Source of the DNA: Escherichia coli
Lineage (GTDB): Bacteria; Pseudomonadota; Gammaproteobacteria; Enterobacterales; Enterobacteriaceae
Direction: 5' to 3' (one strand)
Assembly (NCBI RefSeq): GCF_003790525.1
Contig: NZ_CP033635.1
DNA length: 64,000 nt
In this document: in pieces, positions 39,463 through 45,876 of the stretch
Position numbering within the stretch: the first letter of the stretch is position 1
Layout of the letters: every line of letters starts with the position of its first letter
Made by a program: the position numbers and the translations under genes
Notes under the pieces: model-generated
The model's database searches: none
Told to the model about the DNA's origin: nothing
Seen by the model: only the letters and a program-made list of their open reading frames with translations

Positions 39463-41537
39463 TTACCGCCAATTGTCGCCGTCATGCGGATATGTCGGTT
39501 ATCAGACAGTTCCAGATTCGACAGCACCACTAACTGCGGCAGACTGCGGCGCAGGAAGCGAGACAATAAAGGTCGCAGCGCGTGGTTCACCAATAAAACT
39601 GGCGGCGCACCCAACATCTCCTGACGGGATAGCGCTTCCTGAGTTTGCGCCAGTAAACGATCCGCCAGCCCTGGCTCCAGTCCGCCCCCGCCCTGCAGCG
39701 CCTGTAGTAACAAACGTTCCAGCGGTGTATCGAGGCCAATAACATGGACTTCATCTTTGCCAGGAAACCACTGCTGGGTAATCGCCCGTCCCAACGCCAC
39801 GCGCACGACGGCGGTTAATTCATGTGGATCGCTTTGGATGGGCGCATGTTCCGCCAGCGTTTCGAGAATAGTGCGCATATCGCGAATCGGTACTTTTTCA
39901 TCGAGCAGATTTTGCAGCACTTTATGCAGTGTGGTGAGCGTGACGACGCCAGGAACGAGATCTTCCGTCAGCTTTGGCATCTCCTGGGCGACGCGATCCA
40001 GCAGCTGTTGCGCCTCCTGACGACCAAACAGCTCTGCGGCATGCTGGCTAATGAGGTGGTTAAGATGCGTTGCCACCACCGTGCTGGCCTCAACCACGGT
40101 GTATCCCTGAATCTGCGCCTGTTCTTTAAGCGCACTTTCAATCCAGATAGCATTCAGGCCAAATGCCGGATCGACGGTCGCCTCACCAGGTAACGTCCCG
40201 GCAGCGGTACCAGGGTTAATCGCCAACCAACGCCCCGGATAAGCATCACCACTGCCTATCTCCACGCCTTTCATCAAAATGCGATAGCGGGCAGGTTGCA
40301 GATCCATATTGTCGCGAATGTGCACCACCGGCGGCAGAAACCCCATCTCCTGGGCAAATTTCTTGCGAATACTGCGTATACGGCCCAGCAACTCACCATC
40401 CTGCTGGAAATCGACCATCGGGATCAGGCGATAACCCACTTCCATTCCCAGAGAATCTTCCAGTTGTACATCGTTCCACGTCGCTTCGACAACGGTATTA
40501 TTCTCTGCCATTTTTACCGGTTTTGGTTCGGCAGGCGCTTTTTGTTCACGTCCACGGATCCACCAGGCCAGCCCCAGCAATCCGGCAGTGAACAGCAAAA
40601 ATACCAGGTTTGGCATTCCAGGCACCAGGCCGAGTAAACCGAGCACGGCGGCGCTTAACAACATAACGCTTGGGTTACTGAAAAGCTGATTCACCATCTG
40701 CTCGCCAACATCCTGATCGGTGCTGACACGCGTAACGATGACCCCCGCGGCGGTAGAAATCACCAACGCCGGAATTTGTGCCACCAGACCGTCGCCAATG
40801 GTCAATAGCGTATAACTTTCCGCCGCGTGTCCCATGCTCATGCCATGTTGCAGCACGCCGACCAGCAACCCGCCGACAACGTTAATGACCATGATGAGGA
40901 TCCCGGCGATGGCATCGCCGCGAACAAACTTACTTGCCCCATCCATTGAGCCGTAAAAATCGGCTTCCTGAGTCACTTCGGAGCGGCGTTTTTTCGCCTC
41001 ATCTTCACCAATCAATCCAGCGTTAAGGTCGGCGTCAATCGCCATCTGCTTACCCGGCATGCCATCGAGAACAAAGCGCGCACCCACTTCTGCGATACGC
41101 CCGGCACCTTTGGTAATGACCATAAAGTTGATGATCACGAGAATGACAAACACCACGATACCGATAGCGAAATTGCCACCAACGAGGAAGTGACCGAACG
41201 CTTCGACCACCTTTCCAGCCGCCGCCGCGCCGGTATGCCCTTCCATCAAAATGATACGGGTTGAAGCCACGTTAAGTGCCAGACGCAACAGCGTGGTAAA
41301 CAACAGGATGGTCGGAAACGCAGCAAACTCAAGCGTGCGCTGGGTAAACATCGCCACCAGCAACACCATGATCGACAAGGCAATATTGAAGGTAAACAGC
41401 AGGTCGAGTATGAATGCGGGCAGTGGCAGTACCATCATCGACAAGATCAACAGGATCAAAATCGGTCCGGCAAGGATCTGCCATTGTGTCGATTTCAGGT
41501 TTGCGGGCAGGCGCAGCATCGCGGCCAGATTACTCAT
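39459..41537 (-). CDS. flhA: Flagellar type III export apparatus protein FlhA
   Basis: 692 aa; N-terminal polytopic membrane domain and large cytoplasmic domain; canonical. Confidence 0.95.
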   Translation of the reverse strand: MSNLAAMLRLPANLKSTQWQILAGPILILLILSMMVLPLPAFILDLLFTFNIALSIMVLLVAMFTQRTLEFAAFPTILLFTTLLRLALNVASTRIILMEGHTGAAAAGKVVEAFGHFLVGGNFAIGIVVFVILVIINFMVITKGAGRIAEVGARFVLDGMPGKQMAIDADLNAGLIGEDEAKKRRSEVTQEADFYGSMDGASKFVRGDAIAGILIMVINVVGGLLVGVLQHGMSMGHAAESYTLLTIGDGLVAQIPALVISTAAGVIVTRVSTDQDVGEQMVNQLFSNPSVMLLSAAVLGLLGLVPGMPNLVFLLFTAGLLGLAWWIRGREQKAPAEPKPVKMAENNTVVEATWNDVQLEDSLGMEVGYRLIPMVDFQQDGELLGRIRSIRKKFAQEMGFLPPVVHIRDNMDLQPARYRILMKGVEIGSGDAYPGRWLAINPGTAAGTLPGEATVDPAFGLNAIWIESALKEQAQIQGYTVVEASTVVATHLNHLISQHAAELFGRQEAQQLLDRVAQEMPKLTEDLVPGVVTLTTLHKVLQNLLDEKVPIRDMRTILETLAEHAPIQSDPHELTAVVRVALGRAITQQWFPGKDEVHVIGLDTPLERLLLQALQGGGGLEPGLADRLLAQTQEALSRQEMLGAPPVLLVNHALRPLLSRFLRRSLPQLVVLSNLELSDNRHIRMTATIGGK

Positions 41538-42678
41538 GGGACGGTTTCTCGTTAATAAAATCCAGGGCTTCCGGCACCGGAAGATGAGTAGGTTGTACAG
41601 GGCGCTGTCCTCCAGCCAGACGCCAGCGTTTCAGTTGCCAGACCCAGGCCAGCACTTCCGCTACCGCGGCGTACAGTTGACCCGGGATTTGTTGACCGAT
41701 CTCCGCATGTCGATACAGCGCTCGCGCCAGCGGCGGCGCTTCAAGCGTAGGGACGTTATTTTCAGCACCAATTTCACGAATGCGCAGCGCGACCAGTCCT
41801 GCACCTTTAGCGACCACTTTCGGTGCGCTCATTTTGTTTTCGTCATACTGCAACGCTACCGAATAGTGGGTTGGGTTATTGACAATGACATCCGCTTTCG
41901 GCACATCGGCCATCATCCGACGCCGCGCGGCAGCTCGCTGCATCTGACGTATCCGCCCTTTAACATGGGGGTCGCCTTCGCTTTGTTTGAACTCATCACG
42001 AATATCCTGCCGCGACATTCGCAGCTTTTTCAGGTGGCTGAAGATTTGGAAAAAGACGTCAAATCCCACCATCGGAATAACACCAAGCACCACCAGCAGT
42101 GCGCATAGCCCTACCAGATCCATCGCATTACCCATGGCGGTAATCGGAGACTCGGCCATTAAGCGCATCATCTGCGGCCAGTGATGCCAGAGAAAAAACC
42201 CCGTCACGCTGCCAACCAGGATGGTTTTCAAAATTGCCTTAAGCAACTCCGCGCCAGTCTGTGCCGAGAACATCCGTTTAATGCCCGGTAGCGGGTTGAG
42301 TTTGGAAAACTTCGGCTGCAAGGATTTGCCGCTAAATACCAGCCCCCCCAGCATAACCGGAGAAATAATCGCCACCAGCACCACGCCGCTAATCAGCGGT
42401 AGCAGCGCCAGCATGGCTTCTCTGATCAGCAGAATAATCTGCCCGAGGATCAAATTCGGGTCATTGATAATACTGTGATCAAAATGCAGCCCAGCGGAGA
42501 GCATGCCCGACAATCGACGGGCCAGCGACACACCGCCAAACCAGATAACACACACGCCCACTAACAAAATCAGCAGCGAGGTCAGTTCACGGGAACGCGG
42601 GATTTGCCCCTCTTCCCGCGCTTTTTCTAGTCGGTGAGGTGTGGGGGCTTCTGTTTTGTCGTCGCTCTCGTCAGACAC
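41530..42678 (-). CDS. flhB: Flagellar export apparatus switch protein FlhB
   Basis: 382 aa; autocleavage motif NPTH present (VIVNNPTHYSVAL). Confidence 0.95.
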   Translation of the reverse strand: MSDESDDKTEAPTPHRLEKAREEGQIPRSRELTSLLILLVGVCVIWFGGVSLARRLSGMLSAGLHFDHSIINDPNLILGQIILLIREAMLALLPLISGVVLVAIISPVMLGGLVFSGKSLQPKFSKLNPLPGIKRMFSAQTGAELLKAILKTILVGSVTGFFLWHHWPQMMRLMAESPITAMGNAMDLVGLCALLVVLGVIPMVGFDVFFQIFSHLKKLRMSRQDIRDEFKQSEGDPHVKGRIRQMQRAAARRRMMADVPKADVIVNNPTHYSVALQYDENKMSAPKVVAKGAGLVALRIREIGAENNVPTLEAPPLARALYRHAEIGQQIPGQLYAAVAEVLAWVWQLKRWRLAGGQRPVQPTHLPVPEALDFINEKPSHE

Positions 42679-42914
42679 GTCGCCAATCCTGGAAAGAGTA
42701 TTAAGCGTAAATGATGCCAGATCGCAAAGCGTTCAATGGTTTGAGTAAGGGGCAAAACAGGCGGGATTTAGGGCGTTTATGCAAAAAACAGGTTCAGTTG
42801 CAGAACGTTTTGCGAACCATTTTCCAGTTCTGATATTTAGCCATTTAGCCTATAGAATCGCCCACCGCCTCTCTGTTAGTTTGCTAATAATTAAATTATT
42901 ACAAAGGCGATCAA

Positions 42915-44423
42915 ATGGAATGGCAACAATTGCTTAACTGCAACCGTCGGAAAGATAATCTAAAAAAAACCAGCATAGAATTTTTACATCCCCTTGCTAG
43001 CGGAAGACAAGAGATCGAGCGGGATTACGACCGATTACTTTTTGCTGCGCCAACTCGTCGGCTTGCGGATAAAACACAAGTTTTCCCGTTAGATCAAAAT
43101 GACAGTATACGGACGAGGCTGACTCATTCTCACGAAGTAGCAAACTTTGCTCGCGGAATAGGAATGAGACTCGCTTTCGAGATGAAGGAACACATCTTTG
43201 GCGAAATACCCACGGGGATTGTCGTTGAACGCGACGTTCCTGCTCTGTTAGCAGCGATCGGACTGGCACACGATCTCGGTAATCCACCATTTGGGCATCA
43301 AGGTGAAGCAGCGATGCGCGCATGGTTTAATAAAAATCTTCCAGGCCTTCTTGATAAAGAAGTAAACAGCGAAATATATAACGACTTTCTGCAATTTGAT
43401 GGAAACTCACAAACCCTACGCCTGGTTACCAAATTACAAATTATTAACGATAACTTTGGTCTGAATCTGACCTATGCCACGCTGGCTGCACTGATCAAAT
43501 ATCCCCGAGCTTCATATTCATCGGACAAACATTGGAAAAAGCACGGTTTTTTCTATTCTGAGCATGAGGTTGTCATGGATGTCTGGCAGCAAACGGGCCT
43601 TGGCGTACCAGGTAATGATGCCGGTTGCCGCCACCCATTTACCTGGATAATGGAAGCTTGCGACGATATTGCCTACTCTGTGCTTGACGCAGAAGATACC
43701 ATCAAGAAAGGATTTGCCTCATACCAGGATTTGCGTGATTTTTTGATGTCACAATCCGAGCCGAACGATGTAATTCAACATGTTATTGAAGCTGTAGAGG
43801 CCAAAAATGACGCCTGGAAAGAGCAAAGAAATGCACTTTCACCGGCGGAAATTAATGAACTCAGTATGCAAATGTTCAGAGTTTATGCCACCAGTGCATT
43901 GATTAATGCCGTAGTAGAAGCCTTTCGCGAACAATTACCCACGCTGATGCAGCGTGACTGCCCGTTCAAAGATTTAATCTCGCAAAGCAAAGGTCACGCT
44001 CTCTGCACTGCCCTGAAAATGTTCGACCGAACACGAGGCTACCTTCATCGTTCAGTCTTGCAACTGGAACTTAGGGGATCTAATTACATTACTAACTTGA
44101 TGGATATGCTCTGGATTGGCATCCATGGACACAAAACAAAGAAACAACGAGACGGAGAACGCGAGTCCGCGTCTGCAGATAACCTTTTTGTTTCTCGTGA
44201 AGAATACCTGTCGGATACTCCCTTTGGTCGCTATGCTTACGGGACAATCTCTGAAAATTATCGCCGTGTGTTTGAAGATCCCGCCAATACACTCCCTGCT
44301 CTTTATAAAGAAGCGCAGTTGCTTACCGACGCAATCTCAGGCATGACGGATAGTTATTTAATGCGCCTTCACGATGAGCTAAAATCACTGTATGAATGTG
44401 GTCTCAAACACCCAACAGCTTGA
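42915..44423 (+). CDS. Dgt-family deoxynucleoside triphosphate triphosphohydrolase (dGTPase-like HD-domain protein), accessory paralog
   Basis: 502 aa; dGTPase family motifs in Dgt order: RRLADKTQVFPL, RTRLTHSHEV, GLAHDLGNPPFGH (HD), FTWIMEACDDIAYSVLDAEDTIKKG, ISGMTDSYLMRLHDEL. AT-rich gene on the strand opposite the flanking flagellar/che genes. Confidence 0.8.
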   Translation: MEWQQLLNCNRRKDNLKKTSIEFLHPLASGRQEIERDYDRLLFAAPTRRLADKTQVFPLDQNDSIRTRLTHSHEVANFARGIGMRLAFEMKEHIFGEIPTGIVVERDVPALLAAIGLAHDLGNPPFGHQGEAAMRAWFNKNLPGLLDKEVNSEIYNDFLQFDGNSQTLRLVTKLQIINDNFGLNLTYATLAALIKYPRASYSSDKHWKKHGFFYSEHEVVMDVWQQTGLGVPGNDAGCRHPFTWIMEACDDIAYSVLDAEDTIKKGFASYQDLRDFLMSQSEPNDVIQHVIEAVEAKNDAWKEQRNALSPAEINELSMQMFRVYATSALINAVVEAFREQLPTLMQRDCPFKDLISQSKGHALCTALKMFDRTRGYLHRSVLQLELRGSNYITNLMDMLWIGIHGHKTKKQRDGERESASADNLFVSREEYLSDTPFGRYAYGTISENYRRVFEDPANTLPALYKEAQLLTDAISGMTDSYLMRLHDELKSLYECGLKHPTA

Positions 44424-45144
44424 ACAGCGTATCGCCGATTTTTTTACGCTTAGTGATGAGCATAAGAAAGCCAGAGTATTACTTGATACTCTGGCCTGTT
44501 CCTGTCCGGCCTGGATTTTTGGCGGGATGGTGCGTGACTTAGGCTTGTTTGGCGTCGAGGGATTCTCTTCAGACCTTGATATCGTCATCGGTCGCTCCCG
44601 TGAGGAACTCTTCCGGACATTGGCTGAACTGCCCGTCAAACAACTGCGTTTTAATAAGTTCGGTGGGATCCGTTTTCGTTATCACGACTTCGAATTTGAT
44701 ATCTGGAACCTCAATGAGACATGGGCATTTCGGGAAAAACTTATATTTTGTGAGGATGAATCAAGTCTGTTAAACACTACGCTGATGAGTTGGGATGCCG
44801 TGCTCTATGATCTACGTAGTGAAAAAATTATCAGTAAAGATAATTATTTGACCGACTTAAATCGCAGACATCTTGAACTTGTTCTTCATACTAACCCCAA
44901 TCCAAGCGGTTCGGTAACGAAAATTTTACGCACTATTTTTACTAAGCAGGTAAAGAGTTTAGGTCCGGAACTCTGTCATTTCTTGCACCATGAACTGACG
45001 AAAAAACGTTATGAAGTTTGGCATCATTACGATGTACTGCACTACCAGTCATCGTCATTTTCTCGTTCACAATTTAATGCGTTGATAAATTTACTGGCGC
45101 AACAATCACGCTTCGCTGATCTAAAATTATCAAATTACAAATAA
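44392..45144 (+). CDS. Pol-beta superfamily nucleotidyltransferase (CCA-adding/poly(A)-polymerase-head-like motif), partner of the dGTPase-like gene
   Basis: 250 aa; overlaps upstream gene by 32 nt; N-terminal FGGMVRDLGLFGVEGFSSDLDIVIG matches the GG-x-[VI]RD...DxD nucleotidyltransferase signature; no HD or other known C-terminal domain. Confidence 0.6.
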   Translation: MNVVSNTQQLEQRIADFFTLSDEHKKARVLLDTLACSCPAWIFGGMVRDLGLFGVEGFSSDLDIVIGRSREELFRTLAELPVKQLRFNKFGGIRFRYHDFEFDIWNLNETWAFREKLIFCEDESSLLNTTLMSWDAVLYDLRSEKIISKDNYLTDLNRRHLELVLHTNPNPSGSVTKILRTIFTKQVKSLGPELCHFLHHELTKKRYEVWHHYDVLHYQSSSFSRSQFNALINLLAQQSRFADLKLSNYK

Positions 45145-45189
45145 CCATCCTCCACATACTTCCTGAACGATACCCGCCCCCCTGCTATC

Positions 45190-45212
45190 GGCCTGGCATC
45201 ATCGCGCAGGCC
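45190..45212. terminator. Hairpin between convergent NTase gene and cheZ (possible bidirectional terminator)
   Basis: GGCCTG-gcatcatcgcg-CAGGCC inverted repeat; no clear T-run, so weak. Confidence 0.25.
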
Positions 45213-45231
45213 GAAGTTAAGGCAATACAAA

Positions 45232-45876
45232 TCAAAATCCAAGACTATCCAACAAATCGTCCACCTGATCCTGACTGGCTACCACACCGGCTTTGCTGGT
45301 ATCGACCTGAGGTCCATTAAGCAAACTCTGGTTTTCACGTTTTGGACGCGACTCCTGTTCCGGGATGTTTTCCAACAGCACCATCAGCAACTGACGTTCG
45401 ATCTCCTGAATGACATCCATCATCCGCTTAATGACCTGCCCGGTGAGATCCTGAAAATCCTGCGCCATCATGATTTCCAGCAGTTGCGCGTTAGTAAAGC
45501 TGGTATGCGCGGGGACATCTGCCAGAAATTGCCGCGTATCTGTTACCAGTTCACGGGCGTCGGCAAGGTCAATCGGATCGGCAAACCAGTCATCCCAACG
45601 TTGGGTTAACGCTTTTGCTGATTTCTCCATTTGATCCTGATGCGGTTGTGACGCCTCAACACTGTTCAGCGCCCGCTCCGCAGCCTGGGCGGTCATCTGC
45701 ACAACATAGTACAAACGATCGCGCGCATCGGGGATGGCTTCCGCCGCTTCGGCAATGGCCTGATCCAGCCCCAGCTCCCGCAAACTGTCGCGCAGCATAC
45801 GCGTCAGGCTGCCGATGCGCGCAATGATATCGCCAGCTGAATGCTCGTCAGCAGGTTTGATTGATGGTTGCATCAT
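45232..45876 (-). CDS. cheZ: Chemotaxis phosphatase CheZ
   Basis: Start at [18 protein letters not shown]; 214 aa. Confidence 0.9.

What the first reader, a model, noticed from the sequence alone, without database searches (positions are those of the whole stretch)
42915..44423. Second, horizontally acquired Dgt-like dNTPase with intact catalytic motifs
The 502-aa protein carries the dGTPase family blocks in the same order as E. coli Dgt: KTQVFPL, RTRLTHSHEV, HDLGNPPFGH, FTWIMEACDDIAYSVLDAEDT, ISGMTDSY. It is therefore probably an active triphosphohydrolase rather than a decayed fragment. The canonical dgt lies elsewhere on the chromosome, so this is an extra accessory copy, the configuration reported for anti-phage dGTPases.
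Basis: partly seen in the sequence, partly recalled or inferred. Interest (0 to 1): 0.7.

Follow-up and report, generated by a model that had tools for sequence, protein, structure and literature searches.

The report
Clover anti-phage system (CloA dGTPase + CloB)

Summary
It is a second dGTPase-family gene. Housekeeping dgt is only 29-30% identical and sits at mtnN-degP in 5,424 of 5,426 complete E. coli genomes.

It is not a stand-alone dGTPase. It overlaps by 32 nt a 250-aa nucleotidyltransferase gene (44392-45144). The pair is a homologue of the Clover defence system (Yamaguchi et al., bioRxiv 2025, PMC12265719).
- CloA is 65% identical to Salmonella CloA (PDB 9P8S-9P8V, E=6e-191; model TM 0.90).
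- CloB is 35% identical to Salmonella CloB (E=3e-55).
- Conserved in CloA: all six catalytic residues, all nine dTTP-activator contacts, and nine of ten contacts for the inhibitor p3diT.
- CloB keeps its catalytic D61/D63/D103.

By homology, CloA is a dGTPase switched on by phage-raised dTTP and held off by CloB-made p3diT.

The 2.4-kb island (44% GC) lies between flhB and cheZ in 106 of 5,426 E. coli genomes. It has no mobility genes. The same site holds it in at least six other enterobacterial genera, so it looks like an old resident that is often lost.

This is a known kind of system. This sub-lineage is untested and public annotation does not label it as Clover.

The parts
42775..45219 (.). 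Accessory island of about 2.45 kb. It replaces about 93 bp of the flhB-cheZ intergenic region found in 'empty' E. coli genomes.
   Evidence: Alignment with the empty site of strain LAU-OXA: identity is lost after window 42774 and resumes at 45220. The full island is present in 106 of 5,426 complete genomes. cloAB is 44.0% GC against 53.6% for the flanking genes. No flanking direct or inverted repeats and no mobility genes.
42830..42858 (+). Promoter-like site (CTGATA-17-TAGAAT) inside a block upstream of cloA that is conserved across genera. AAGG lies 8-9 nt before the ATG.
   Evidence: Consensus scan; this is not above the chance expectation on its own. The surrounding block is conserved in E. 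coli, L008 and L010 (alignment A4). This part is inferred, not shown.
42915..44423 (+). cloA: 502-aa HD-domain dGTP triphosphohydrolase, the Clover effector.
   Evidence: ORF. PDB 9P8S-9P8V (Salmonella CloA) at E=5.6e-191. 65% identity to Salmonella CloA and 64% to E. coli H5 CloA. AF2 model has TM 0.90 to 9P8U, Foldseek E=5.6e-40, against about 1e-18 for Dgt. RefSeq annotates it as 'dGTP triphosphohydrolase'.
43269..43307 (+). Codons for the HD motif (H119, D120) and the HE catalytic dyad (H128, E131). The other metal ligands, H71 and D250, lie outside this span.
   Evidence: Residue mapping onto Salmonella CloA H117/D118/H126/E129/H69/D242. All are invariant in 39 family members.
44139..44198 (+). 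20-aa charged insertion (CloA residues 409-428) in the C-terminal helical bundle, just before the dTTP-contact residues S446 and N448. It is length- and sequence-variable within the flhB-cheZ sub-lineage.
   Evidence: Alignment with Salmonella and H5 CloA. The loop is 12 aa in the Salmonella, H5 and Pseudomonas types and 20-32 aa in most sequences that group with the window protein. It is predicted as a helix at pLDDT about 72-78. Function unknown.
44392..44423 (+). 32-nt overlap of the cloA 3' end with the cloB 5' end. No clear Shine-Dalgarno sequence, so translational coupling is likely.
   Evidence: The overlap is also 32-47 nt in L008, L010, L012, Salmonella and H5.
44392..45144 (+). cloB: 250-aa minimal class-II (CCA-adding/poly(A)-polymerase-like) nucleotidyltransferase. 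It is the predicted synthase of the inhibitory signal p3diT.
   Evidence: 35% identity over full length to Salmonella CloB, E=3e-55. The Salmonella protein's D71/D73 numbering matches the paper. Family invariants are G44 G45 R48 D49 S60 D61 D63 D103 W105. AF2 pLDDT is 91.9; the best PDB folds are CCA-adding and A-adding enzymes, E down to 7e-9. Pfam PolyA_pol is only sub-threshold. RefSeq annotates it as 'hypothetical protein'.
44572..44580 (+). Codons GAC CTT GAT = D61-L62-D63, the catalytic DxD of CloB. The third acidic residue, D103, lies downstream.
   Evidence: Sequence read. Aligns with Salmonella CloB D71/D73, whose mutation abolishes p3diT synthesis.
41530..42678 (-). flhB, the core flanking gene on the left (context only).
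45232..45876 (-). cheZ, the core flanking gene on the right (context only).

Best explanation
Window 42915-45144 encodes a Clover anti-phage defence system, with cloA and cloB on one operon.

CloA is an HD-domain dGTP triphosphohydrolase that is catalytically silent on its own. In an uninfected cell, CloB joins two dTTP into pppdTpdT (p3diT). CloB is a minimal template-independent nucleotidyltransferase with a CCA-adding-enzyme-like fold. p3diT binds a pocket at the CloA dimer interface and raises the dTTP level needed for activation.

When a phage that inflates the dNTP pool (T5-like phages, through Dmp and NrdAB) raises dTTP, dTTP occupies the adjacent allosteric pocket. This orders the alpha3-alpha4 loop and completes the active site. 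CloA then hydrolyses dGTP to deoxyguanosine plus triphosphate, which starves phage DNA replication.

Shown here: the anatomy, the homology, residue-level conservation of all three ligand sites, conserved gene pairing, purifying selection and accessory distribution.
Shown by others, on the Salmonella and E. coli H5 homologues: the biochemistry and the phage defence.
Inferred: that this diverged pair behaves the same way.
For: (a) CloA is closest to experimentally solved CloA. PDB 9P8S-9P8V score E=5.6e-191 over residues 1-495. Identity is 65%. The AF2 model has TM 0.90 and Foldseek E=5.6e-40, twenty orders of magnitude better than E. coli Dgt.

(b) Residue mapping.
- Catalytic residues: H71, H119, D120, D250, H128, E131.
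- dTTP site, 9 of 9 conserved: R49, D63, Q175, K264, S446, N448, A473, T478, Y481.
- p3diT site, 9 of 10 conserved: R31, R36, D39, R40, F43, N77, N184, Q319, R322; T25 is L27 here.
- Housekeeping Dgt lacks most of the allosteric-site residues.
- These residues are invariant or nearly so in 39 family members.

(c) The downstream gene is a CloB homologue: E=3e-55 and 35% identity over full length, with catalytic D61/D63 corresponding to D71/D73. Its fold is class-II NTase.

(d) Pairing is conserved. A CloA homologue lies directly upstream of the CloB homologue in about 36 of 38 loci from alpha-, beta- and gammaproteobacteria. The overlap is 32-47 nt.

(e) Both genes are under purifying selection. 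Within E. coli, cloB shows 11-12 synonymous against 1 non-synonymous differences. Between congeners dN/dS is 0.05-0.12.

(f) The pair is accessory: 106 of 5,426 genomes.

(g) The mechanism for the homologues is described in PMC12265719.
Against: - No experiment exists on this allele.
- CloB is only 35% identical to the characterised enzymes. It lacks about 9 N-terminal and about 17 C-terminal residues.
- CloA differs at T25 (L27 here), Q427 (D455) and the octamer-interface residue H263 (Q271). It also carries 5-aa and 20-aa insertions. Oligomeric state, thresholds and phage range may therefore differ.
- The locus is not in a recognisable defence island. It sits between flagellar and chemotaxis core genes.
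- I could not check the paper's Supplementary Table 1 to see whether this protein is listed.
Confidence: 0.88

Rival explanations
1. This is a stand-alone defence dGTPase of the Tal et al. 2022 / Sp-dGTPase type. It would be one self-sufficient enzyme that depletes dGTP on infection, and the downstream ORF would be unrelated.
For: The PADLOC dGTPase model matches at E=5.8e-71. The catalytic residues are shared with Sp-dGTPase and Dgt.
Against: It scores 183 bits against a 400-bit cut-off for NCBIfam antiphage_dGTPase. The Sp-dGTPase structure 9P8W matches only residues 31-202 at E=2.5e-24, against E=5.6e-191 for CloA. The downstream gene overlaps by 32 nt, is a CloB homologue and is co-inherited in about 36 of 38 loci. 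The two allosteric pockets specific to CloA are intact.
Confidence: 0.04
2. This is a relocated or duplicated housekeeping dNTPase that tunes dNTP pools and mutation rate, with no role in immunity.
For: It has the same fold and active site as Dgt. It sits among core flagellar and chemotaxis genes, at a site conserved across genera and without mobility genes.
Against: It is only 29-30% identical to Dgt, which remains at mtnN-degP in 5,424 of 5,426 genomes. The pair is present in only about 2% of E. coli and has decayed in Buttiauxella izardii. GC is 44%. Its close homologues give more than 10,000-fold protection against T5-like phages.
Confidence: 0.03
3. This is Clover-like in architecture but uses a different signal or trigger. 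In this reading the diverged CloB (35% identity) makes another short oligonucleotide or acts on another primer. The CloA insertion or altered interface would change the activating cue, for example direct sensing of, or evasion of, a phage protein.
For: CloB is highly diverged and shorter than the characterised enzymes. CloA carries a hypervariable charged 20-aa insertion next to the dTTP-site residues. The interface residue H263 is Q here, and T25 is L. Synonymous divergence of cloAB exceeds that of the flanks.
Against: The thymine-reading residues of the p3diT pocket (D39, N77, Q319) and of the dTTP pocket (D63, T478, Y481, R49) are identical and family-invariant. The paper reports that a distant Xanthomonas CloB also makes p3diT. 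The substituted positions are variable across the whole family; D455 is in fact the majority state.
Confidence: 0.05

Closest known systems
Clover defence system, CloA/CloB, of Salmonella enterica SA20044414 and E. coli H5 (Yamaguchi et al., bioRxiv 2025, PMC12265719; PDB 9P8S-9P8V)
   Same: - Two overlapping genes in the same order.
- CloA 64-65% and CloB 35-36% identical.
- All catalytic residues, all nine dTTP-site residues and nine of ten p3diT-site residues conserved.
- CloB catalytic DxD...D present.
- Predicted CloA fold has TM 0.90 to 9P8U.
   Different: - It belongs to a different sub-lineage. CloA is 31 aa longer, with 5-aa and 20-aa insertions. CloB is 26-27 aa shorter. T25 is L, Q427 is D and H263 is Q.
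- The genomic setting differs. The tested systems lie in a tRNA-Sec integrase island next to QueC/PfkB/glycosylase/Dam genes. This one lies between flhB and cheZ with no mobility genes, at a site shared by several genera.
- It is untested experimentally.
Single-gene defence dGTPases (Sp-dGTPase of Shewanella putrefaciens CN-32; Tal et al. 2022; PDB 9P8W; NCBIfam NF041026; PADLOC 'dGTPase')
   Same: It has the same HD fold and the same dGTP triphosphohydrolase chemistry. Defence works by dGTP depletion. The PADLOC model matches.
   Different: Sp-dGTPase is active alone, forms hexamers, has no partner gene and is strongest against T7. The window protein is below the NF041026 cut-off (183 against 400 bits) and carries the CloA-specific allosteric pockets.
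Housekeeping E. coli Dgt (PDB 4X9E, 6OIY)
   Same: It has the same family blocks and metal and dyad residues. TM is about 0.74.
   Different: Identity is 29-30%. Dgt lacks most p3diT-site residues and several dTTP-site residues, for example R29, R34, D37, F41, Q311, D61, Q172 and K256 in Salmonella numbering. It is a core gene at mtnN-degP.
Class II tRNA nucleotidyltransferases (CCA-adding and A-adding enzymes, poly(A) polymerase I; Pfam PF01743), as relatives of CloB
   Same: CloB has the GGxxRD...DxD head motif. The best structural matches are PDB 3H3A, 4WBY, 1VFG and 3AQL at E=1e-7 to 7e-9. The chemistry is template-independent addition to a 3'-OH.
   Different: CloB is only 250 aa, against about 400 aa in the class II enzymes, so much of their length has no counterpart in CloB (TM normalised to the target only about 0.3-0.4). 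Sequence similarity is sub-threshold (Pfam E about 0.1). The inferred primer is a nucleotide (dTTP), not tRNA.
Defence systems held off by an inhibitory nucleotide signal (Hailong oligodeoxyadenylate; MISS/Panoptes 2'3'-c-di-AMP)
   Same: The logic is the same: a nucleotidyltransferase makes a signal that keeps the effector off until infection. The paper itself cites these as parallels.
   Different: The proteins, signals and effectors are unrelated. I took this comparison from the paper and did not test it here.

Membership tests
Clover (CloA/CloB) | Two-gene operon: a dNTPase (CloA) immediately followed by an NTase (CloB). | tested here: met
   cloA is at 42915-44423 and cloB at 44392-45144, on the same strand with a 32-nt overlap. 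The same arrangement occurs in Salmonella, E. coli H5 and about 36 of 38 other loci.
Clover (CloA/CloB) | CloA has an HD motif, additional metal ligands and an HE catalytic dyad. | tested here: met
   H71, H119, D120, D250, H128 and E131 align with Salmonella H69, H117, D118, D242, H126 and E129. All are invariant in 39 homologues.
Clover (CloA/CloB) | CloA has an allosteric dTTP-activator pocket (R47, D61, Q172, K256, S418, N420, A444, T449, Y452). | tested here: met
   9 of 9 are identical in the window protein. Binding itself was not tested.
Clover (CloA/CloB) | CloA has an inhibitory p3diT pocket (T25, R29, R34, D37, R38, F41, N75, N181, Q311, R314). | tested here: met
   9 of 10 are identical. 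T25 is L27 here, at a position that varies across the family (T16/L12/I4/K4 and others).
Clover (CloA/CloB) | CloB is a Pol-beta-superfamily NTase with a [D/E]h[D/E]...h[D/E]h active site. | tested here: met
   D61-L-D63 and F-D103-I are invariant in 33 homologues. The AF2 model matches class-II NTases. It is homologous to Salmonella CloB at E=3e-55.
Clover (CloA/CloB) | CloA forms a clover-like octamer. | not testable with these tools
   Only a monomer was modelled. The interface residue R46 is kept (R48). H263 is Q271, and there is a 20-aa insertion in the C-terminal bundle. The assembly state is therefore open.
Clover (CloA/CloB) | dTTP-dependent dGTPase activity, p3diT synthesis by CloB and inhibition of CloA by p3diT. 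| not testable with these tools
   This needs biochemistry. It has been shown only for the Salmonella and E. coli H5 homologues, and for Xanthomonas CloB.
Clover (CloA/CloB) | Protection against phage (T5-like), and toxicity when CloB is inactivated. | not testable with these tools
   Needs plaque and toxicity assays. Indirect support comes from accessory distribution and purifying selection.
Single-gene anti-phage dGTPase (NCBIfam NF041026 / Sp-dGTPase clade) | Scores above the curated family cut-off, or shares at least 45% identity with Sp-dGTPase (the Tal et al. criterion). | tested here: not met
   NF041026 scores 183 bits against a cut-off of 400, and NF003701 scores 154 against 383. 9P8W matches only residues 31-202 at E=2.5e-24. 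The criterion is quoted.
Single-gene anti-phage dGTPase (NCBIfam NF041026 / Sp-dGTPase clade) | Acts alone, with no dedicated partner gene. | tested here: not met
   A conserved, overlapping cloB partner is present.
Housekeeping Dgt (NCBIfam NF003429, PRK04926) | Scores above the equivalog cut-off and sits at the orthologous mtnN-degP position. | tested here: not met
   It scores 271 bits against a cut-off of 405. Identity to Dgt is 29%. The true dgt is at mtnN-degP and is a core gene.
dGTP triphosphohydrolase subfamily (TIGR01353) | Scores above the subfamily cut-off over the full length. | tested here: met
   285 bits against a cut-off of 152, covering residues 31-490.

The most novel reading that the evidence does not exclude
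The flhB-cheZ sub-lineage of Clover may be a functionally distinct variant. It is chromosomally anchored and inherited across enterobacterial genera. Its hypervariable, charged 20-32-aa insertion sits beside the dTTP pocket, and the tetramer-interface residue H263 is Q. Together these could change the assembly state, the activation threshold or the phage range. The insertion could also be an arms-race surface for phage-encoded inhibitors, in the way that T7 Gp1.2 inhibits Dgt. In that case its trigger or specificity would differ from the published Salmonella and H5 systems.
Probability: 0.12. Interest if true: 0.55.

Novelty: new member of a known kind. Interest (0 to 1): 0.3.

Why it matters
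For annotation: RefSeq labels these two genes 'dgt: dGTP triphosphohydrolase' and 'hypothetical protein'. PADLOC-DB 2023 would call a lone 'dGTPase'. The correct reading is a two-component, signal-regulated defence system present in about 2% of complete E. coli genomes.

For biology, this lineage adds three things to the published Clover systems.
- It is a natural allele 35% diverged in CloA and 65% diverged in CloB, yet it keeps every ligand-reading residue. That makes it a ready-made test of how general dTTP/p3diT control is.
- It occupies an unusual setting for a defence system: a fixed intergenic site between flagellar and chemotaxis core genes, shared by several genera, without mobility genes. 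This bears on how defence genes persist and are lost.
- It has a hypervariable insertion that could be tested for effects on assembly or evasion of phage inhibitors.

None of this would surprise a specialist who knows the 2025 work.

Tried and rejected
- Assuming the window is E. coli SMS-3-5. I first took the whole window to be collinear with SMS-3-5. GC and ORF content at 13-29 kb did not fit. That part is a lambdoid prophage integrated next to yecE that SMS-3-5 lacks. Only the region around the island is shared, so the source strain is unidentified.
- Mobile-element signatures. I found no flanking direct or inverted repeats, integrase or transposase.
- Non-coding RNA in the island. Rfam gave only one sub-threshold chance hit.
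- Terminator and promoter scans. Counts were not above shuffled expectation.
- Direct sequence identification of CloB. There were no hits in PADLOC or NCBIfam. Pfam PolyA_pol was only sub-threshold. The PDB gave no sequence hit for the single protein and E about 0.07 with a profile. Identification came from gene neighbourhood, the Salmonella homologue and the fold search.
- The paper's Supplementary Table 1 (list of CloB homologues) is not held. Nicastro et al. 2023 is not held. I therefore could not check whether this exact protein is already listed.
- Tree congruence of CloA with the flanks. Within-clade pairs group together, but between genera CloA saturates at 67-70% identity. Vertical descent against exchange at the site cannot be decided from these data (Pearson r=0.80 but Spearman 0.09).
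- An apparent 193-nt difference in the left flank of two strains was an artefact of a 1-nt indel.
- Hochhauser et al. 2023 (E. coli defence hotspots) does not mention flhB, cheZ or dGTPase.
Full report
**1. The observation**

The ORF is real. An ATG-to-stop reading frame of 502 codons lies at window 42915-44423 on the + strand. It passes the curated cut-off of the dGTP triphosphohydrolase subfamily TIGR01353 (285 bits against 152). It matches the PADLOC 'dGTPase' model at E=5.8e-71. Pfam sees only a weak HD hit.

It is a second copy. The housekeeping dgt of E. coli SMS-3-5 sits at its normal place between mtnN and degP. SMS-3-5 is a strain whose sequence is 100% identical to window 42600-45300. 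Housekeeping Dgt is only 29-30% identical to the window protein. Housekeeping dgt is present in 5,424 of 5,426 complete E. coli genomes. The window itself holds no other dgt.

**2.

A 250-codon ORF at 44392-45144 starts 32 nt before the dGTPase stop codon, on the same strand. RefSeq calls it a hypothetical protein. It has no PADLOC or NCBIfam hit and only a sub-threshold Pfam PolyA_pol hit. It does carry a GGxxRD...DLD signature.

**3. Identification**

The dGTPase's best match among solved structures is a set of four entries, 9P8S-9P8V, at E=5.6e-191 over residues 1-495. [quoted passage not shown]

They belong to Yamaguchi et al., bioRxiv 2025 (PMC12265719), which defines the Clover defence system. 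The paper reports the following for the Salmonella enterica SA20044414 and E. coli H5 systems:
- CloA is a dGTPase that is inactive alone.
- CloA is switched on allosterically by dTTP, which rises when T5-like phages remodel the dNTP pool.
- CloA is held off by p3diT (pppdTpdT), which is made by the partner nucleotidyltransferase CloB.
- Inactivating CloB makes the operon toxic.

I recovered the Salmonella operon (L004) and the E. coli H5 operon (L005). The H5 operon is exactly the 2,200 bp stated in the paper. The Salmonella CloB has D71 and D73 exactly as numbered in the paper.

The window proteins compare as follows:
- CloA is 65% identical to Salmonella CloA and 64% to H5 CloA.
- CloB is 35% identical to Salmonella CloB and 36% to H5 CloB, over the full length (E=3e-55).

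**4. Residue-level membership test**

I mapped the residues named in the paper onto the window CloA.
- Metal ligands and dyad: H71, H119, D120, D250, H128 and E131 are all present.
- dTTP pocket: R49, D63, Q175, K264, S446, N448, A473, T478 and Y481, so 9 of 9 are identical.
- p3diT pocket: R31, R36, D39, R40, F43, N77, N184, Q319 and R322, so 9 of 10 are identical. T25 is L27 here.

Housekeeping Dgt lacks most of the two allosteric sets. In an alignment of 39 family members, from Enterobacteriaceae to Pseudomonas, Shewanella and Vibrio, these residues are invariant or nearly so. The substituted positions (27, 271, 455) vary across the whole family.

An AF2 model of the window CloA (pLDDT 82.9) superposes on 9P8U with TM 0.90 and Foldseek E=5.6e-40. 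The best scores for Dgt and other dGTPases are about 1e-18 to 1e-19. Its low-confidence segments (46-68, 177-179) coincide with the alpha3-alpha4 and alpha8-alpha9 loops. The paper describes both loops as moving on ligand binding.

For CloB, 33 homologues share invariant G44 G45 R48 D49 S60 D61 D63 D103 W105. An AF2 model (pLDDT 91.9) matches class-II CCA-adding and A-adding enzymes and poly(A) polymerase, with E down to 7e-9. That fold fits an enzyme adding one dTMP to the 3'-OH of a nucleotide primer. The nucleotide-primer step is my inference.

The protein fails the curated cut-offs for the single-gene anti-phage dGTPase family (183 against 400 bits) and for housekeeping Dgt (271 against 405 bits).

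**5. Is the pair a unit, and is it functional?**

A scan of one genome per species with the CloB profile returned 38 loci from alpha-, beta- and gammaproteobacteria. In about 36 of them a CloA homologue lies directly upstream; the other two loci are cut short. The gene overlap is kept at 32-47 nt.

Selection is purifying:
- Among E. coli alleles, cloB shows 11-12 synonymous against 1 non-synonymous differences.
- Among E. coli alleles, cloA has dN/dS of 0.19-0.56, based on few changes.
- Between congeners, dN/dS is 0.05-0.12.

**6. Genomic setting and origin**

Comparison with an empty site places the island at about 42775-45219. It replaces about 93 bp of the flhB-cheZ spacer. The two genes are 44% GC against 54% for the flanking genes. 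I found no integrase, transposase or flanking repeats and no Rfam RNA.

The full island is present in 106 of 5,426 complete E. coli genomes, at 98.3-100% identity. Eight further genomes carry the H5-type system instead.

The same flhB-cheZ or cheZ-adjacent site carries diverged cloAB in many other bacteria:
- Enterobacter cancerogenus and E. quasihormaechei
- Cronobacter dublinensis
- Pseudescherichia vulneris
- 'Escherichia sp. ESNIH1'
- an Enterobacteriaceae MAG
- Atlantibacter (cheZ side)
- Pluralibacter (cheZ side)
- Buttiauxella massiliensis
- Buttiauxella izardii, where only remnants survive

In these, CloA is 64-80% and CloB 42-73% identical to the window proteins. In the three that I measured (L008, L010, L012), GC is again below the flanks.

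Within-clade pairs of CloA group as the flanks do. Between genera the signal is saturated. Synonymous divergence of cloAB is 1.3-3 times that of the flanks.

I read this as an old resident of this site that is frequently lost, or exchanged by recombination in the flanking core genes. It does not look like a recent mobile-element insertion. The data do not separate these options.

By contrast, the experimentally tested Salmonella and H5 systems sit in a tRNA-Sec integrase island.

**7. How it most likely works**

By homology, CloB converts dTTP into p3diT in uninfected cells. p3diT occupies the dimer-interface pocket of CloA and raises the dTTP level needed for activation. A phage-induced dTTP surge displaces this restraint. 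dTTP binding orders the alpha3-alpha4 loop, and CloA hydrolyses dGTP to deoxyguanosine plus triphosphate. Phage DNA synthesis then stalls.

What is shown here is the anatomy, the conservation and the selection. The biochemistry and the defence are shown only for the homologues. Transfer of that mechanism to this allele is an inference that I rate at about 0.8-0.9.

**8. Differences from the characterised systems**

- CloA carries a 5-aa insertion (residues 229-233).
- CloA carries a 20-aa K/E-rich insertion (residues 409-428) just before the dTTP-contact residues S446 and N448. This loop is 12 aa in the Salmonella, H5 and Pseudomonas types. It is 20-32 aa and hypervariable in most sequences that group with the window protein.
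- The pi-stacking interface residue H263 is Q271.
- CloB lacks about 9 N-terminal and about 17 C-terminal residues.

Oligomeric state, activation threshold and phage range are therefore open questions.

**9. Verdict**

It misses the essential point that this is the regulated effector of a two-gene Clover system. 'Horizontally acquired' also needs qualification.

The kind of system is already published. This is an uncharacterised, diverged member that public annotation does not recognise as Clover. I could not check whether it is already listed in the paper's supplementary table. Interest is low to moderate.

Noticed in passing
window 1-28810 (integrase ORF 27497-28810; yecE 28837-29562): The first ~29 kb of the window is a lambdoid prophage integrated next to yecE. 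It carries terminase, lysis genes, a porin, antiterminator Q, a toprim/helicase replication module, an XRE repressor, a ParE-like toxin, excisionase and integrase. E. coli SMS-3-5 lacks it, so the window comes from another strain that shares the identical Clover island. The prophage ends about 14 kb from cloA and is not part of the island.
   Followed up: partly
L004 1-3671 and L005 1353-5535: In both Salmonella and E. coli H5, the experimentally tested Clover operon sits in a tRNA-Sec integrase island. Directly beside it is a conserved five-gene cluster: PfkB/nucleoside deoxyribosyltransferase-like, QueC-like, a hypothetical protein, an Ogg-type glycosylase and a Dam-like methylase. This looks like a separate nucleotide or DNA-modification defence module.
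   Followed up: no
L049 3740-4228 (Buttiauxella izardii); also L027 (B. massiliensis): Between flhB and cheZ only remnants of cloA (62 aa) and cloB (76 aa) survive in B. izardii. The matches in B. massiliensis are shortened. This catches decay and loss of the island at the same site in progress. A truncated 160-aa CloB (91% identity) is also on record from Shigella flexneri (P0010).
   Followed up: partly
window 42800-42900; alignment A4: A block upstream of cloA (GTTTTGCGAAC..TTTCCA..TAGAAT..TGTTAG) is conserved between E. coli and two other genera, although the rest of the spacer has diverged. It could be a promoter or operator. The promoter-like site lies at 42830-42858.
   Followed up: partly
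L054 1-165 (E. coli FDAARGOS_944): In this Clover-carrying strain the adjacent flhB is annotated as a pseudogene with an internal stop.
   Followed up: no
PMC12265719 data-availability statement against PDB: The preprint lists the CloA coordinates as 8P9S-8P9V. The entries that actually match, and are titled CloA, are 9P8S-9P8V. The paper's dGTP contact 'Q377' maps to a glutamate (E377) in the Salmonella sequence I recovered; this residue is conserved as E385 in the window protein.
   Followed up: yes
window 42915-45144 compared with L010/L020 and L018/L019: Between congeneric hosts, the synonymous divergence of cloA and cloB is 1.3-3 times that of the flanking flhB and cheZ (dS 0.42-2.5 against 0.26-0.84). 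Possible causes are older alleles, exchange between lineages or weak codon-usage constraint.
   Followed up: partly
window CloA residues 46-68 and 177-179 (nt 43050-43118 and 43443-43451): The only internal low-confidence stretches of the AF2 monomer model coincide with the alpha3-alpha4 and alpha8-alpha9 loops. The Clover paper identifies these as the elements that re-order on dTTP or p3diT binding.
   Followed up: partly
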